This document shows positions 16,916-26,823 of a stretch of DNA of 64,000 nt, in pieces. How positions within the stretch are numbered: position 1 is the stretch's first letter; every line of letters begins with the position of its first letter. A program made the translations under genes and the position numbers. This stretch comes from a virus. Location: the UHGV virus genome UHGV-0134778. One strand, 5' to 3'. Under the pieces are notes generated by a model that was not told the DNA's origin, made no database searches, and saw only the letters and a list, made by a program, of their open reading frames with translations.

Positions 16916-17199
16916 TAATGAAAAAGATTAACAGTAGTGAAGTAGAGTTTAAACTTGTCGGAAAAGGCACTTACTGGGAAGTTCGTCAAAAGGTATATTT
17001 GTTCGGTCTTATTCCCTACTGGTCTAAATTCTACTGGGGAGCTAACGAGTTGGGAAGATACGCCACCAAATCAATGGCACTTATTGGTATAGCAGAGTAC
17101 ATTGCAGCCCGAGACAGGGTTGGAACCACTTATTACTACACTGCTGACGATATTCGTAACAGTGTTTACGTCCCACAACCACCTGATGGAGACCGTTGA
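16912..17199 (+). CDS. hypothetical protein (95 aa)
   Basis: ATGA overlap with previous gene. Confidence 0.5.
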   Translation: MIMKKINSSEVEFKLVGKGTYWEVRQKVYLFGLIPYWSKFYWGANELGRYATKSMALIGIAEYIAARDRVGTTYYYTADDIRNSVYVPQPPDGDR

Positions 17200-17423
17200 T
17201 GAAAGTTAAAGTTTTAGATTCAAGCTTCTATATTGGTCAGGAGCCTTTAGTAGGAAAAGTGTTTACTGCTGTCCCTAACGAAGATTACCCTGACCTTTTA
17301 AAAATAAAAGGAGCAGATCTTATTGCCGCTGGTGCATCTCAGGAATGCTTTGACAGTCAGTGGACCTATAACTTTGCCCTAGGTGAGGATGTAGAGGTAG
17401 TGGAGGACGATCATGAAGGTTAA
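17196..17423 (+). CDS. hypothetical small acidic protein, 'VEVVEE-tail' paralog
   Basis: MMKVKVLDS...GADLIAAGA...EDVEVVEDDHEG. Confidence 0.6.
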   Translation: MMKVKVLDSSFYIGQEPLVGKVFTAVPNEDYPDLLKIKGADLIAAGASQECFDSQWTYNFALGEDVEVVEDDHEG

Positions 17424-17667
17424 AATTCTTGATTCTAACGTCTACTTGGGACAATCCTTCCTGAATGGAAAGGTCGTTCCTGCGGTATACTTTGAAGGGT
17501 TGCCGTGGGATGATCCTGTGCGGCAACATCACAGTTATGTAGGCCACAACGTGGTGTTTATCTTGGGATCAGACCTGATCACCGCTGGTGCACCTGAATA
17601 TTATTTCGGGGAAGAGTCCTACTATGCCTTTGGGGTAGGGTCAGATGCAGATATTGTAGAGCTGTGA
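17413..17667 (+). CDS. hypothetical small acidic protein, 'VEVVEE-tail' paralog
   Basis: MKVKILDSNVYLGQ...SDLITAGAP...SDADIVEL. Confidence 0.6.
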   Translation: MKVKILDSNVYLGQSFLNGKVVPAVYFEGLPWDDPVRQHHSYVGHNVVFILGSDLITAGAPEYYFGEESYYAFGVGSDADIVEL

Positions 17668-17679
17668 TGGGTAACCGTT

Positions 17680-18078
17680 GTGAAAAATAAACTGTTTAAA
17701 GTTACAATGAAAATTCGCGGAGCTTGGAGCGTAAAGCAAGGGCGCATCCCAGAGTTTGAGAAAGACTTCTACGTAGTCTCCACCTCTGAAGAGGCTGCAT
17801 GCTGGCAGGCTGGATATGCCTATGCAAGAACCTGGTACGAAGGATACCAGACTGGAGGCTATGACGGAGAAATTGTCAGCAAGGGTGTGGAAGAAATTAA
17901 TGTGTTGACAAGTGAAAAAGTTTTTGTTATAGTGCATCCTGATTCTAGAGTGAAGCATTACTGGAATGCCAGAACAAAAACCTGGACACCGTTTGCAGAT
18001 TCTGCTACACCGCTTTTAAACCAGAAAGCTCTTGACTCTGCCCCAAGCTATGGGGTTGTTGAAGAAAAGATAAGCTGA
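17680..18078 (+). CDS. hypothetical protein (132 aa), paralog of 19887..20282
   Basis: Shared pattern HPxS...YW...WTP...L with 19887..20282. Confidence 0.6.
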   Translation: MKNKLFKVTMKIRGAWSVKQGRIPEFEKDFYVVSTSEEAACWQAGYAYARTWYEGYQTGGYDGEIVSKGVEEINVLTSEKVFVIVHPDSRVKHYWNARTKTWTPFADSATPLLNQKALDSAPSYGVVEEKIS

Positions 18079-18392: not shown

Positions 18393-18421
18393 TTGACACA
18401 ACACTTGATCTTTAGTATCAT
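18393..18421 (+). promoter_or_regulatory. sigma70-like promoter upstream of hpf
   Basis: TTGACA 18393-18398, 17-nt spacer, TATCAT 18416-18421; followed by stem-loop AGAGGG-TTTGGTT-CCCTCT. Confidence 0.55.
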
Positions 18422-18468
18422 TATTTTCAAAGAGGGTTTGGTTCCCTCTTCTTTAAAAGGAGCACGTT

Positions 18469-18786
18469 ATGCAGATTGAAATCACTGGCAACGTAGAGAT
18501 CACTGAAGGTATGGTGTCTTTCATTTCCCACAAAATGTCCAAACTGGAGCGTTTGCACCCATCTGCCAACTATGCACGTGTGAGTGTAAAAGTTGAAAAT
18601 GATCACCAGGAAGTTATGGCTTTTATTTTTGACAATTCTGGGAAAGAAGTTATCGCCAAAGCTAAAGGTAGCGATGCTTACGAGGCAACTGACCGTATGG
18701 TGGATGTTGCAGCACGCCAGTTGGCTAAATGCGGTGGAAAGAAAGGTAAGGGAAAAGGTAAAGTAAAGATTGACTTTTTAGATTAA
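18469..18786 (+). CDS. hpf: ribosome hibernation promoting factor / ribosome-associated inhibitor homolog (105 aa)
   Basis: Close match by eye to bacterial HPF/YfiA: MQIEITGNVEITEGM...KLERL...VSVKVEN...AKAKGSDAYEATDRMVDVAARQLAK. Confidence 0.7.
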   Translation: MQIEITGNVEITEGMVSFISHKMSKLERLHPSANYARVSVKVENDHQEVMAFIFDNSGKEVIAKAKGSDAYEATDRMVDVAARQLAKCGGKKGKGKGKVKIDFLD

Positions 18787-18795
18787 GGTGCTACA

Positions 18796-18897
18796 ATGGG
18801 CATGATTAAGAAATTAGTCCCAAATGTAGAGATTGCATGCTTTGAAATTATGTTTGCAATCGCAGTTGTAGTTAATGTGTTAGGTTACGGCTATTAA
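18796..18897 (+). CDS. small hydrophobic peptide (33 aa), below track cutoff
   Basis: AAGGTG RBS; MGMIKKLVPNVEIACFEIMFAIAVVVNVLGYGY. Confidence 0.35.
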   Translation: MGMIKKLVPNVEIACFEIMFAIAVVVNVLGYGY

Positions 18898-18924: not shown

Positions 18925-19194
18925 ATGAAAATTAAATTATTCAAAACTGAGCTGGCAGACAAAAACTGCGGACTGGTTGAAGGCATGATCGTTGAAGCAC
19001 AACCAGTTGACTACATGAAGGTGGTTCGTGATGCCCTGGGTGAAGGTTTTGATCTGATGGAGCCAGCTCTGCGAGAAGATGTCATCGAGATGGCTAAAAA
19101 GCACACACCGGAAGGTTTGGTAGTGTTTGTTGCACCAGGTAACGGGGAAGAGTTGATTGTAACTCCGGATGTGTATGAGGTTGTAGAAGAGTAA
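18925..19194 (+). CDS. hypothetical small acidic protein, 'VEVVEE-tail' paralog
   Basis: MKIKLFK...VTPDVYEVVEE. Confidence 0.6.
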   Translation: MKIKLFKTELADKNCGLVEGMIVEAQPVDYMKVVRDALGEGFDLMEPALREDVIEMAKKHTPEGLVVFVAPGNGEELIVTPDVYEVVEE

Positions 19195-19286: not shown

Positions 19287-19550
19287 ATGATTGTTTATTT
19301 TAAAACTTCAGGTGGATACCCTGATTCTCAAAGCTTGATTGGAAAAACGTGCACAGCATACTCACCTCTTGATGAGGAGGTAAGTGGTATCCTACGAGAT
19401 ATGTATCGGATTGATCCACAAGAAGCTTTTGATCAAAACCTTGTATTTGTCAAGGGATCAGACATAAAGTCTTTGGGGGCATTCCCTGAAGCAGATGATG
19501 ATGCTGTTTATTCGTTTATGACACCTTTTGAAGCTATGGTTGTGGGGTAA
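19287..19550 (+). CDS. hypothetical small protein, related to the 'VEVVEE' family
   Basis: MIVYFKTSGGYP...VKGSDIKSLGA...; first gene of duplicated 3-gene module. Confidence 0.55.
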   Translation: MIVYFKTSGGYPDSQSLIGKTCTAYSPLDEEVSGILRDMYRIDPQEAFDQNLVFVKGSDIKSLGAFPEADDDAVYSFMTPFEAMVVG

Positions 19551-19554
19551 GAAT

Positions 19555-19887
19555 ATGAAAGTACGCTTTATTGGTGAAACAATTCCTGTGCATCTCCGGT
19601 CTCCTGAAGACTCTGCAGATCTTGCATCTCAAAAGGCGAGAGGGTATGATAAGAAAGTGATCTCAAGCAATGTAGAGCTTGAGGCCACCAGTCTGCCTGA
19701 CCCAGCTGCATTCTTCAATCATTATGGCTACTATTTTAGCAATCTGATGAATATTGGTGAGCTTGTGTTTATTAGTGGTGGAGAGATAGTTAGCAAGCTT
19801 GGTGGAGATCCGGATATCTTTCATGAAACCTGTCCTTTTGCATTTGTGGTGGGTTCAGATGTGGAAGTTATTGAGGAGGTTCGGTAA
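19555..19887 (+). CDS. hypothetical small acidic protein, 'VEVVEE-tail' paralog (track ORF 19528..19887 trimmed)
   Basis: ATG at 19555 with GGGGTAAG upstream; ...GSDVEVIEEVR. Confidence 0.55.
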   Translation: MKVRFIGETIPVHLRSPEDSADLASQKARGYDKKVISSNVELEATSLPDPAAFFNHYGYYFSNLMNIGELVFISGGEIVSKLGGDPDIFHETCPFAFVVGSDVEVIEEVR

Positions 19888-20282
19888 TGGTAAGTCTATA
19901 CCGTGTTGAGTATAGCTCGGATACTGTATACAACGTAAGAAGCAAAGATCGCAGTGATAGAGTGCAAGAAATGTATGTTCTTGCAGATAGTCCGTTATCT
20001 GCAGCGTTCAAGGCAGGAGCTCTTGCATCTCGTTGGAAATTTGAGGGTGGATCTTTCTATGAAGAAACCCTCGAAGATTCTGTTGTTATTTCTTCTGTAG
20101 AGGTTTCAACCGACTACGAAGGGAAAAAGTTCGTAATGCGGCACCCACACAGCAACATTGCGTACTACTGGGATGTTCTGAACAATGAGTGGACACCTGA
20201 TCTTCAGAAGGCCACTGTTCTAACCCCATTCCTGGCAGATAAGTTCCCACCAGAAGGTAATTTATCTGCACTGTTTCAGTAA
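19887..20282 (+). CDS. hypothetical protein (131 aa), paralog of 17680..18078
   Basis: Shared HPHS..YYW...WTP motif. Confidence 0.6.
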   Translation: MVSLYRVEYSSDTVYNVRSKDRSDRVQEMYVLADSPLSAAFKAGALASRWKFEGGSFYEETLEDSVVISSVEVSTDYEGKKFVMRHPHSNIAYYWDVLNNEWTPDLQKATVLTPFLADKFPPEGNLSALFQ

Positions 20283-23733: not shown

Positions 23734-24063
23734 TAAACACACATGCATCTGAAGAGACATCCAAAGGAGTGACTATATGTCCCTTGGCTGAGCCAGTGAA
23801 AGAGGAAAACTTAGATTCTGAAGATTCTCCATCTTCGCTCCAGGTAGATCCTGAGGCTGATGACCTAACGTGGGAAGACATCGTAGACATCTGGTTCTCC
23901 ATTATGCCTGAGCACGAAGAGTTCAGAGGTGGCAGACTATGAAGCACCGAGCCCACACAGGTTCCTCATGCTAAAGCATGGCCTGAAGAGGCAAACGTGC
24001 ATAATTCCTGTGCATTGGAACGTATAAAACCCTGTTCACACTCTCATTTCTAGAGGAGATTTC

Positions 24064-24279
24064 ATGAAGATAGAAATATTTGGTGGAGCTGACAACACTT
24101 GTGGCCTGATTTACCTCGAATTCGATGAATCGTACCTGCCAGAAGTGTTAAACATGGATTCTGTTGCTGAGGCTTTGGGAGTAAGTCCTAAAGATCTCTA
24201 CTCTGGTGCTGAGATTGATGGTTGGGAGGAGACCATGAACATCGATTTCAGTGAAGTAGGTGATGAACCGCTGGACTGA
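24064..24279 (+). CDS. hypothetical acidic protein (71 aa), last plus-strand gene of block
   Basis: AGAGGAGA RBS upstream. Confidence 0.5.
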   Translation: MKIEIFGGADNTCGLIYLEFDESYLPEVLNMDSVAEALGVSPKDLYSGAEIDGWEETMNIDFSEVGDEPLD

Positions 24280-25802
24280 CACACAATTAGTTGCCCGGCT
24301 AAAGTGCTGGAAGCACCCATAACATCTTCCAACTAAATTTCCTACCAACACAGTTACTTACCCACCACACATGACTGTTTGCTTGTTTAGTGAGCAGTCA
24401 TCCCTTGACATTCTTGCCTATCTTGATAAAATTAAGTTCTTCTCTTTTCTTTTACCGAGTAATTCGGGTTTTCTGTTCTCTTCGGTTTGAAGGGGTATGG
24501 AGATACACCTGAGTGAACAGGGTGAACAACCGAACCTTTAGCTATGGCATTAGCATGGCGAAGCGGACGGGTGACGAAAGAGGGGCCGGAGGACACCAGT
24601 CACTGCCATATAGTATATGGGTGATAACCTGAAGAGTCTGAATAAGTGTTTAAGTACCAGTCAGAGGAAAAGGTGAATGGTAGCCGAAGGGGGAGGGGGG
24701 TTTCTTATATCTTTAATTTGTATACTTTATATACACTTGTAAACCAATTCAATTAGGATCTGTTTACCACACAAAGTGGATGGAGACAAATATCACCTAT
24801 TAAACTTGAATTATTTATAGAAAATACCACAACACTACTTAAGTCTTTGATTTTACACACAAATCCTACAGATACTCACCCTCCATATTTAACATACTTG
24901 TAACATATCCCATACTCTACCTGTCTGATCAATTTACCCAACTACATCCCCATATTTTTCCTGTCTGTACTACCCCTGCCCCGCCGGGAGTCCCGTCATA
25001 TCTGGCTTCCCAGCAAATATCACACCCACAAATATCATTGCCTGAAGAGGGTTTCATCCCATAATACACACCTTGCCTGAAGAGCGATTCATACACCAAC
25101 TAAATTTTTTAATTGACCCCTCCCCGCCGCCGGAGAGGTTGGCTTTTCCCACACAGGCCTGAAGAGTCAGCCAGAAATATCTGAACAGGCCCAGTTATAC
25201 CACGATTTTGACATGACCGACAGGAGTGCTACCCTGTCAGGAGCCGGTAGCGACTGGAGTGCTGCCAGGCGGACGAAATGGGAATACTTCTCATTCTTAT
25301 AACAATTCTCAAATATCGAGGCAGTGAGGCAAATTAATAGGTGAGGCCGTTCACACAGTGGCACAACATTTGCAACCTATCTTGTGGGGTGAATGAGAAT
25401 ACCTATCATTGTGAGAATAGTTATCATTACGGGCAATTTAACATAATACCCATTATGCGCACCACTGGCGATACATACAGGGATTGATAACATGGGTTAC
25501 TGTTTACGCACATAACAATTATATTTCTTACTATTTGTGCGGGATATAGTTAGCAACCAATAGATTAGATATTGACCTGCGGACTTCTGACCGTCCAGAC
25601 GTCTAAACGCCCACACAACAAGGGTTATACATACATTCCTGAATGTAAACAGGGCCGCAAAAATGCTACCATACCAGTTTGTAAATTTTTCATGCAGCAC
25701 TTGACAAAGAGGAGAAAAACTTGTCTGACACTTTTGCCACTTTTGACACTTTTACCTTTGACACAATATGACACAATAACGGCTGTTACTATTCCATATC
25801 TC

Positions 25803-25858
25803 ACTGTTTACGCATAGACTGTTTACGCCTGAATAGTTTACGCCCAAACTGTTTACAC
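25803..25858 (+). repeat. four tandem iteron-like repeats ACTGTTTACGC
   Basis: ACTGTTTACGC at 25803 and 25818, AGTTTACGC at 25835, ACTGTTTACAC at 25848; further copies near 25508 and 26322. Confidence 0.7.
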
Positions 25859-25869
25859 AGAGATGATGA

Positions 25870-26163
25870 GCCATGCCATTCGTTTGCATGAAAACAATTA
25901 ACAAGATAACAATTAACAAGTTAATAATCTTTCGCTGGCTATGCCAGGTGACTAGGTCACCCCTTCGGGCGTTTATATGACATAATATAAAAGCAGGGCA
26001 ACTATTAGAAGATCTATAGTTGCCTTGCTTGTTATGTCATGATTAACTAAATACAAGGCAACTATGATCTGAGTAATAGATTGCAGAAAAACTATCACGG
26101 GGGTGATGGTTACTGCTTTTATATTATGTCGCGACTCCGTCGCGCCATGCCATTCGTTTGCAT
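25870..26163. repeat. composite element: 20-bp direct repeats flanking 18-bp inverted repeats and GGCAACTAT hairpins
   Basis: DR GCCATGCCATTCGTTTGCAT at 25870 and 26144; IR GACATAATATAAAAGCAG (25979-25996) vs CTGCTTTTATATTATGTC (26113-26130); GGCAACTAT/ATAGTTGCC four times; palindromes GGTGACTAGGTCACC and GCGACTCCGTCGC. Confidence 0.7.
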
Positions 26164-26780
26164 AGTTGCCTTATTGTTACAGGTAAAATAATTACATTAT
26201 TAATTATTTCTTATCTTTCTCTTAGTCATCTAATGATTCCAGTCAGTATAGTAATGTACAGTAAACATTAGACGACTAAAGATTTCTCTGTTTATGATAA
26301 CTCATCGTGATAATTTCGGGCTGTTTACGAAAAATGTTGACACCTGAGCTGATTTATGTTATGCAGTCTACACGAATAATTATTTTATGCAGGTATTGAC
26401 TATTCCGTTATTCTGTGGTTGGAATAAATACTTTGCAGGCTATAGAATGGCGTGCGTACGTGAATTCTGAGATCTGGCGGCTATAGTTATACTCGATTTT
26501 TCGCGTAGAACACGCTTTAGATGCTGTGTAAGTGTATGACTTATAAAGATTTTTAGTTGTTGACAAGATATTGGAGATGTGCATCAGGTTAAAATTTGTG
26601 CAATAGCGGCATTACGTGCACTTTTGGGAGAGAAAACGGGTAAAAATGGACTTGCTACCACACAATGAAAAATTATGCAATAGTTATTTTCCATGTATAT
26701 TTGTACAGTATGTGGGATTGATGGCTAGTCAATTATTCCACTTGCCAGGTAGGGCCGTTTATGGTAGGAGAAGAGCAGAC

Positions 26781-26805
26781 AAAAAGAAAGGGGCCTAAGC
26801 CCCTT
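26781..26805 (-). terminator. intrinsic terminator ending the minus-strand block
   Basis: On minus strand AAGGGGC-TTAG-GCCCCTT hairpin followed by TCTTTTT. Confidence 0.6.
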
Positions 26806-26823
26806 GATAATTCAGTTAAAAAA

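What the first reader, a model, noticed from the sequence alone, without database searches (positions are those of the whole stretch)
18469..18786. Phage-encoded ribosome hibernation factor (HPF/RaiA) homolog with its own promoter
The 105-aa protein matches the HPF/YfiA family along its whole length by eye (MQIEITGN-EITEG...KLERL...V-VKVEN...AKGSDAYEATDRMVDVAARQLAK), and a TTGACA-N17-TATCAT promoter lies immediately upstream. A phage copy could modulate host translation during infection; this is an uncommon auxiliary gene.
Basis: partly seen in the sequence, partly recalled or inferred. Interest (0 to 1): 0.65.

Follow-up and report, generated by a model that had tools for sequence, protein, structure and literature searches.

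The report
Known rV5-phage HPF homolog gene
The gene is a real phage copy of the bacterial ribosome-hibernation factor HPF with a host-type promoter, but it is the already annotated, published and once-tested gp139/ORF144 of rV5-like coliphages, so it is a correct but not a new finding.

Summary
Window 18469-18786 (+) encodes a 105-aa protein. It passes the curated cut-offs of Pfam PF02482 and TIGR00741 (HPF/YfiA). [quoted passage not shown] TTGACA-N17-TATCAT lies at 18393-18421. The window is an rV5-like Vequintavirus. The RefSeq rV5 record already annotates both this gene (ORF144/gp139) and this promoter (P144). Mizuno et al. 2019 described the rV5 HPF and expressed it in E. coli. They did not find it in high-salt-washed 70S/100S ribosomes and saw no effect on 100S. 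It is under strong purifying selection (dN/dS 0-0.13). It keeps part of the ribosome-contact set (K23, K26, R83, K87, K91) and has lost other contacts (R17, T53, H55, K80, K89). In place of the end of helix alpha2 it carries a disordered, variable, lysine-rich tail. My best guess is a salt-sensitive, RaiA-like binder of idle host ribosomes. Function during infection is untested. Novelty: already known. Interest: low.

The parts
18393..18398 (+). -35 hexamer TTGACA of the sigma70-type promoter (rV5 'P144')
   Evidence: Invariant in all sampled rV5-type genomes although the spacer varies. Annotated as 'Sigma70-type promoter; P144' in NC_011041 and predicted by PhagePromoter in phage Gotham.
18416..18421 (+). 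-10 hexamer TATCAT (17-nt spacer after the -35)
18430..18450 (+). 7-bp hairpin AAGAGGG-N7-CCCTCTT at the predicted 5' end of the transcript. Its significance is doubtful.
   Evidence: MFE -11.3 kcal/mol but z = -1.0 against shuffles. One stem pair is lost in V18/Murica/A6-1, and the hairpin is absent in the L003 and L006 lineages.
18457..18462 (+). Shine-Dalgarno AAGGAG, 6 nt upstream of the ATG
   Evidence: read directly from the sequence
18469..18786 (+). CDS, 105 aa: HPF/YfiA-family protein, ortholog of rV5 ORF144/gp139 (YP_002003641, ABI79209)
18469..18735 (+). [quoted passage not shown]
   Evidence: AF2 pLDDT is 84-97 in the 10-residue blocks covering residues 1-80 and 79 for residues 81-90. 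Foldseek gives rmsd 1.0-1.2 A to V. cholerae and E. coli HPF.
18736..18783 (+). Residues 90-105: disordered Lys/Gly-rich tail GKKGKGKGKVKIDFLD. It is not homologous to the HPF or RaiA C-termini.
   Evidence: pLDDT <50. Net charge of residues 88-105 is +4. The tail is altered or truncated in APECc02 and Murica and has a different sequence, still basic, in P0004 and P0029.
18770..18797 (+). Second promoter-like site, TTGACT-N16-TACAAT with TG, overlapping the 3' end of the CDS. It would drive the downstream small genes.
   Evidence: Equivalent TTTACA...TATAAT or TACACT sites follow the gene in L003 and L006.

Best explanation
This is the Vequintavirus (rV5-like coliphage) ortholog of rV5 ORF144/gp139. 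It is a short-HPF-derived member of the HPF/YfiA (Ribosomal_S30AE) family, captured once from a gammaproteobacterial host by an ancestor of these phages and kept since. I put this identity at about 0.97. Shown here: the domain, the fold, conserved gene order, purifying selection and the sigma70-type promoter. Inferred mechanism, at about 0.5: host RNA polymerase transcribes the gene from P144 within the block of small, presumably early, genes. The protein then binds vacant host 30S/70S in the tRNA/mRNA channel through the retained basic residues (E. coli numbering K23, K26, Q29->R, R83, K87, K91) plus the polybasic tail. It has lost K80, K89, the uS9-contacting H55, and T53. It also carries a C-terminal extension leaving helix alpha2 at the point where the RaiA tail heads toward the RMF site. 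For these reasons I expect weaker, salt-sensitive, RaiA-like binding. Such binding would hold and protect idle ribosomes as 70S and compete with host RMF/HPF/RaiA, rather than promote 100S dimers. The confidence value below refers to this mechanism.
For: Family membership. Fold. Closer to short HPF than to RaiA: NCBIfam HPF model 55.8 bits against RaiA model 17.6 bits, and 41-45% identity to Enterobacterales HPFs. Retained and lost contact residues were mapped on the contact list of bioRxiv 10.1101/2025.10.07.680626. That paper also reports that the YfiA tail runs toward the RMF site. The phage proteins are more basic than E. coli HPF, pI 8.7-9.7 against 6.5. Selection: 0 nonsynonymous against 15 synonymous changes between the window and rV5, and dN/dS of 0-0.13 within the clade. 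Three lineages at 100/64/56% identity keep the gene at the same position in the gene array. Promoter. No RMF homolog was found in any phage record. No increase in 100S was seen when rV5 HPF was expressed in E. coli (Mizuno 2019).
Against: Mizuno 2019 found rV5 HPF peptides in crude extract but none in sucrose-gradient 70S/100S fractions. The ribosomes were washed at high stringency and the cells were not infected or in stationary phase, and the authors themselves list these as possible causes. Five residues that contact the ribosome in E. coli, E. hormaechei or P. aeruginosa HPF are replaced in all three phage lineages. K80 and K89 are K or R in most of the 25 diverse bacterial homologs compared. 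Early expression is inferred only from position and promoter type. I found no transcriptome data. The L006 lineage has no promoter of its own, so the dedicated promoter is not essential.
Confidence: 0.5

Rival explanations
1. Classical HPF activity. The phage protein cooperates with host RMF to convert ribosomes into 100S dimers, or simply blocks initiation, and so contributes to shut-off of host translation.
For: The closest characterised relatives are short HPFs. The short form lacks the long-HPF dimerisation domain, so it would need RMF, which the host supplies.
Against: Expression of rV5 HPF in E. coli did not change the 100S peak. The uS9-contact residue H55 and the basic-track residues K80 and K89 are lost. 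No phage RMF exists. A global initiation block would also hit phage mRNAs. The extra C-terminal tail resembles the RaiA arrangement, which antagonises RMF.
Confidence: 0.15
2. Neofunctionalised HPF fold. [quoted passage not shown]
For: It was absent from ribosome fractions despite being expressed. Several canonical contact residues are eroded in all phage lineages, while phage-specific residues are fixed (HP30-31, AKAKG63-67, DAYEATD69-75). It has a long branch, at most 45% identity to any bacterial HPF.
Against: K23, K26, R83 and K87 are invariant in the three phage lineages, and the Q29 position is R in all three; these are the residues that touch 16S rRNA. No alternative partner is suggested by any search. 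The neighbouring genes have no Pfam hits to hint at a system. High-salt washing is known to strip hibernation factors (my own knowledge, and the authors' own caveat).
Confidence: 0.2
3. A decaying or neutral hitch-hiker gene with no function.
For: The C-terminal tail is altered or truncated in some isolates (APECc02, Murica). JES2013 has a GTG start.
Against: dN/dS is 0-0.13 in the core. The reading frame is intact in 119 phage records. The gene is retained at the same position in lineages diverged to 56% identity. The Shine-Dalgarno and promoter hexamers are conserved.
Confidence: 0.03

Closest known systems
rV5 ORF144 / gp139 (YP_002003641, ABI79209), the 'HPF' of Escherichia phage rV5 (Kropinski 2013, PMC3606486; Mizuno 2019, PMC6375957)
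   Same: 100% identical over residues 1-103. Same upstream promoter (P144), same neighbours, same genome type.
   Different: Only the last two residues differ: LD here (as in ECP26) against GE in rV5.
Short HPF (YhbH) of E. coli and other gammaproteobacteria (PDB 2rql, 4v8h, 6h4n, 4hei)
   Same: Same PF02482 domain and fold at rmsd 1.0-1.2 A. 41-45% identity. No long-HPF C-terminal domain. K23, K26, R83, K87, K91 and E60 are kept.
   Different: Scores 55.8 bits against the 125-bit cut-off of the E. coli-type equivalog model. R17V, T53F, H55F, K80V and K89G substitutions. One-residue deletion at N8/N9. A 16-residue Lys/Gly tail replaces HKDKLKQH. pI 8.7 against 6.5. Sits among phage small genes behind a sigma70 promoter rather than in the rpoN operon. 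No effect on 100S when expressed.
RaiA / YfiA / protein Y (PDB 4v8i, 1n3g, 4v4g)
   Same: Same fold. Has a flexible C-terminal extension beyond helix alpha2, the feature by which YfiA approaches the RMF site.
   Different: Only 17.6 bits against the 158-bit cut-off of the RaiA equivalog model, and 20-24% identity in structural alignments. The tail is polybasic. From my own recollection, not checked here, the E. coli YfiA tail ends acidic.
Other phage HPF-family genes (Cronobacter phage GAP32, Xanthomonas jumbo phage XaC1, PHROG 8990)
   Same: Phage-borne S30AE-domain proteins in large myovirus genomes.
   Different: These are separate acquisitions. The window protein falls in its own PHROG 12469 (E=2e-70), which is labelled 'unknown function', and matches PHROG 8990 only at 1.5e-6. 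GAP32 was not recovered by tblastn at E<=1e-3.

Membership tests
HPF/YfiA superfamily (Pfam PF02482 Ribosomal_S30AE; TIGR00741) | Sequence scores above the curated family thresholds | tested here: met
   PF02482 48.3 bits against 23.7. TIGR00741 45.9 bits against 40.9.
HPF/YfiA superfamily | [quoted passage not shown] | tested here: met
   AF2 pLDDT 84, with secondary-structure elements in the right order. The top 36 Foldseek PDB hits are all HPF/YfiA/pY, with TM up to 0.93 and rmsd 1.0-1.2 A. This rests on a predicted structure, not a solved one.
HPF/YfiA superfamily | Basic track on helix alpha2 that contacts 16S rRNA (E. coli K80, R83, K87, K89, K91) | tested here: inconclusive
   3 of 5 are kept in the window protein (R83, K87, K91). 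K80 is V and K89 is G. The P0004 and P0029 lineages keep only R83 and K87. Contact list.
HPF/YfiA superfamily | Binds the 30S subunit in the A/P-site channel of vacant ribosomes | not testable with these tools
   The only experiment is in Mizuno 2019, where rV5 HPF was not detected in high-salt-washed 70S/100S. The authors considered this negative result inconclusive.
Short HPF (E. coli YhbH type, NCBIfam NF007780 equivalog) | Equivalog-level sequence score | tested here: not met
   55.8 bits against a cut-off of 125. It is the best-scoring subfamily model but is far below equivalog level.
Short HPF (E. coli YhbH type) | Single domain of about 95 aa without the long-HPF dimerisation domain | tested here: met
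   105 aa. Residues 90-105 are disordered and no second domain is present.
Short HPF (E. coli YhbH type) | His/Arg55-Glu60 pair contacting the uS9 C-terminus; T53/H62 motif at m2G966 | tested here: not met
   H55 is F in all three phage lineages. T53 is F or R. E60 is kept only in the rV5 type. H62 is I, M or L.
Short HPF (E. coli YhbH type) | Promotes 100S formation together with RMF | not testable with these tools
   Published expression test: no discernible effect on 100S. No RMF homolog was found in any phage record.
RaiA / YfiA | Equivalog-level sequence score (NF007654) | tested here: not met
   17.6 bits against a cut-off of 158. The RefSeq product name 'ribosome-associated translation inhibitor RaiA' is therefore a family-level label only.
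Long HPF (Firmicutes type) | C-terminal dimerisation domain, total length about 180-190 aa | tested here: not met
   The protein is 105 aa. Matches to long HPFs cover only their N-terminal domain.

The most novel reading that the evidence does not exclude
The Vequintavirus HPF may have evolved into an anti-hibernation factor. It would be a low-affinity, RMF-incompatible occupant of the HPF/RaiA site, having lost K80, K89 and H55 and gained a polybasic tail. It would displace host HPF/RaiA/RMF and let the phage re-awaken hibernating ribosomes when it infects starved or stationary-phase gut E. coli. Alternatively, it may have left the ribosome altogether for a new RNA or protein target.
Probability: 0.2. 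Interest if true: 0.6.

Novelty: already known. Interest (0 to 1): 0.15.

Why it matters
Phage-encoded translation factors are of real interest, and the role of HPF copies in phages is still unresolved. The single published test was negative but not decisive. Even so, this gene, its family assignment and its promoter have been in the rV5 reference annotation for years and were the subject of a 2019 paper. This scan hit therefore adds no new entity. The useful additions are comparative. The gene is a fixed, selected part of the small-gene block in at least three divergent rV5-like lineages. The pattern of kept and lost ribosome-contact residues, together with the variable polybasic tail, gives a concrete, testable reason why it may behave unlike host HPF.

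Tried and rejected
1. 5'-UTR hairpin 18430-18450 as a regulatory or terminator element. Its energy is not distinguishable from shuffles (z = -1.0), it is weakened in V18-type phages, and it is absent in the two divergent lineages. I do not claim it as functional.

2. Rfam scan of 17.5-27.5 kb found no family.

3. The word-indexed protein search with the single sequence found only phage relatives. The exhaustive search found only 22 hits at E<=1e-3 because of the large database size. One of them, P0122 (1160 aa, 8 stretches), is a repeat-driven spurious hit and not an HPF.

4. A second 'sigma 54 modulation factor' is annotated next door in ECP26, APECc02 and A6-1. The 89-aa product of 18925-19194 has no Pfam hit, so I treat this as a shifted or propagated mis-annotation and not a second HPF.

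5. A search for a phage RMF partner found no match in 50,697 phage records.

6. Literature searches for transcriptomics of rV5-like phages, or for any functional follow-up of the phage HPF after 2019, found nothing relevant.

7. dN/dS between the three deep lineages could not be computed because synonymous sites are saturated.

Full report
**The observation**

An AAGGAG Shine-Dalgarno lies at 18457-18462. TTGACA (18393-18398), a 17-nt spacer and TATCAT (18416-18421) lie 47 nt upstream of the ATG, which is an 11/12 match to the sigma70 consensus. This promoter match is not an isolated chance hit. Sites matching 11/12 or better occur 21 times in the 64-kb window against 1.3 +/- 1.1 in Markov-1 simulated sequences. 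All 21 point the same way as the local genes: + strand up to 24.4 kb and - strand from 27.3 kb onward.

**Family assignment**

- Pfam PF02482 (Ribosomal_S30AE) matches at E=1.8e-12 and 48.3 bits against a gathering score of 23.7, over profile positions 1-83 of 88.
- NCBIfam TIGR00741 (HPF/YfiA family) scores 45.9 bits against a cut-off of 40.9.
- The E. coli-type HPF equivalog model is the best subfamily model but stays far below its cut-off (55.8 against 125). The RaiA model scores 17.6 against 158.
- phmmer against PDB sequences ranks E. coli HPF (2rql, 4v8h, 6h4n) first at E about 5e-12, aligned over residues 1-89.
- An AlphaFold2 model was built on a 67-sequence alignment. It has mean pLDDT 84 and the elements E2-7, H13-29, E33-43, E46-55, E60-67 and H70-89, followed by a disordered tail at 90-105.
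- Foldseek against the PDB returns only HPF/YfiA/pY proteins in its 36 best hits. V. cholerae HPF 4hei is first (TM 0.91, rmsd 1.0 A), and ribosome-bound E. coli HPF 6h4n_x aligns at rmsd 1.2 A.

**What the window is, and prior knowledge**

The 4-kb surroundings are 92-97% identical to about 120 Vequintavirus (rV5-like) genomes. The protein is found at 96-100% identity in 118 of 119 matching phage records. Most annotated records call it 'sigma 54 modulation factor', 'RaiA', 'ribosome hibernation factor' or 'hypothetical protein'.

The RefSeq rV5 record annotates the gene as ORF144/gp139, 'similar to Klebsiella oxytoca probable sigma(54) modulation protein'. Kropinski et al. 2013 (PMC3606486) describe 33 sigma70-like promoters in rV5 and a block of 88 mainly small ORFs at 92269-121323. 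By its coordinates in the record (98197-98514), this gene lies inside that block.

Mizuno et al. 2019 (PMC6375957) list the rV5, FV3, JES-2013 and FFH2 proteins as phage HPFs and place them among gammaproteobacterial HPFs. They proposed that viral HPF might compete with the cellular protein to prevent ribosome dimerisation. They also expressed rV5 HPF from pBAD24 in E. coli. Its peptides were seen in crude extract but not in high-salt-washed 70S or 100S fractions, and the 100S peak did not change. They name growth phase, salt stripping or genuine loss of binding as possible causes. Mathieu et al. 2020 again list hpf as an rV5 auxiliary gene. The finding is therefore correct but already known.

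- *Single, old acquisition.* Two further lineages of rV5-like phages are known only from assemblies. They carry a 103-aa (P0004, 64% identity) and a 104-aa (P0029, 56% identity) version at the same position in the same array of small genes. Neighbouring genes have diverged to a similar degree (27-90% identity). No bacterial HPF exceeds 45% identity.
- *Selection.* Within the rV5 clade the core shows, for example, 0 nonsynonymous against 15 synonymous differences between the window and rV5. dN/dS is 0-0.13.
- *Promoter.* Both hexamers are invariant in all sampled rV5-type genomes while the spacer varies. A TTGACA is retained in the P0004 lineage. The P0029 lineage has only a 33-nt intergenic gap and no promoter of its own. 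The dedicated promoter is therefore real-looking but dispensable.
- *Contact residues.* I used the HPF-ribosome contacts listed for E. coli, E. hormaechei and P. aeruginosa in bioRxiv 10.1101/2025.10.07.680626. The phage proteins keep K23, K26, R83 and K87, have Arg in place of Q29, and (rV5 type only) keep E60 and K91. All three lineages have replaced R17 (V), T53 (F or R), H55 (F; this is the uS9 contact), K80 (V, T or I) and K89 (G, S or N). In 25 diverse bacterial family members, K80 and K89 are K or R in most.
- *Tail.* Helix alpha2 ends at residue 89. It is followed by a disordered basic tail that differs in sequence between lineages. The tail is altered or truncated in some isolates: APECc02 ends ...KCGRKKGKGERQSKD and Murica ends ...GKGKAK.
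- *Charge.* The phage proteins are more basic than E. coli HPF, with pI 8.7-9.7 against 6.5.
- *RMF.* No RMF homolog exists in any of 50,697 phage records.

**Mechanism**

Shown: an HPF-family fold, a selected gene, and a host-type promoter in the small-gene block.

Inferred: the protein is made early by host RNA polymerase and acts on host ribosomes. I commit to the following model at a probability of about 0.5. The protein still binds the 30S tRNA/mRNA channel of idle ribosomes through the retained alpha1/alpha2 basic residues and the polybasic tail. Binding is weaker and more salt-sensitive than that of host HPF. Because a C-terminal extension leaves alpha2 where the YfiA tail heads toward the RMF site, it behaves like RaiA. 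That is, it keeps ribosomes as protected 70S monomers and competes with RMF/HPF-driven 100S formation. This model fits the absence of a 100S effect and is compatible with the loss of the protein during high-salt washing.

The rival models are:

- classical 100S promotion or host translation shut-off (0.15);
- a neofunctionalised fold that no longer targets the ribosome (0.2);
- a neutral remnant (0.03, contradicted by the selection data).

**Comparison and verdict**

The protein is a member of the HPF/YfiA superfamily; the sequence and fold tests were met. It is derived from short HPF. It is not an equivalog of E. coli HPF or of RaiA, since those equivalog thresholds were tested and not met. 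It is not a long HPF. It is identical over residues 1-103 to a published protein. Novelty: already known. Interest is low, at 0.15. The residual interest lies in the still-open question of what a phage does with an HPF. The residue pattern described above makes that question more testable.

Noticed in passing
window 18925-19194 (+): The 89-aa gene just downstream is labelled 'sigma 54 modulation factor' in several GenBank records (ECP26, APECc02, A6-1). It has no Pfam hit at E<=1. This looks like a shifted or propagated mis-annotation. Conversely, the true HPF gene is labelled 'ATP-dependent protease La type I' in the O177 and bov phage records.
   Followed up: yes
window 18736-18783 (tail of the HPF CDS); L010, L011: The tail-coding segment (GGKKGKGKGK) is altered or truncated in some isolates (APECc02, Murica). 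V18-type phages carry an extra Asn codon at GN(N)VEIT, which restores the E. coli-like spacing.
   Followed up: partly
window about 23950-26820: A stretch of about 2.8 kb has almost no ORFs, and gene orientation switches there from + to -. By its offset from the HPF gene it appears to correspond to the 'non-coding' region 104013-106618 reported for rV5. It contains three 15-nt-spaced GTTTACGC... repeats (25806-25856), four copies of GCCTGAAGAG, and nested inverted repeats at 25979-26179. These are iteron-like features, so it could be a replication origin. No Rfam hit and no tRNA.
   Followed up: partly
window 17196-17423, 17413-17667, 19528-19887; and 17680-18078 against 19887-20282: The small-gene array contains paralog families (40%, 30% and 26% identity pairs). 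The 17680-18078 copy has no counterpart at that position in the divergent L003 and L006 lineages, where its best match is the 19887-20282 ortholog. This suggests a lineage-specific duplication. None has a Pfam hit.
   Followed up: partly
phage database records MG0656xx: Eighteen records named 'Campylobacter phage' with host C. jejuni are 94-95% identical to this E. coli rV5-like region and carry the same HPF gene. Their host labels look doubtful.
   Followed up: no
window 18796-18897 (+): A 33-aa ORF (MGMIKKLVPNVEIACFEIMFAIAVVVNVLGYGY) lies directly after the HPF gene and behind its own promoter-like site at 18770-18797. It looks hydrophobic by eye. It is annotated as ORF145 in rV5 and as 'putative membrane protein' in one record.
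   Followed up: no
PHROGs library: The family holding this protein, phrog_12469, is labelled 'unknown function' although its members pass the Pfam and TIGRFAM HPF thresholds. The annotated S30AE PHROG (8990) is a different family.
   Followed up: yes
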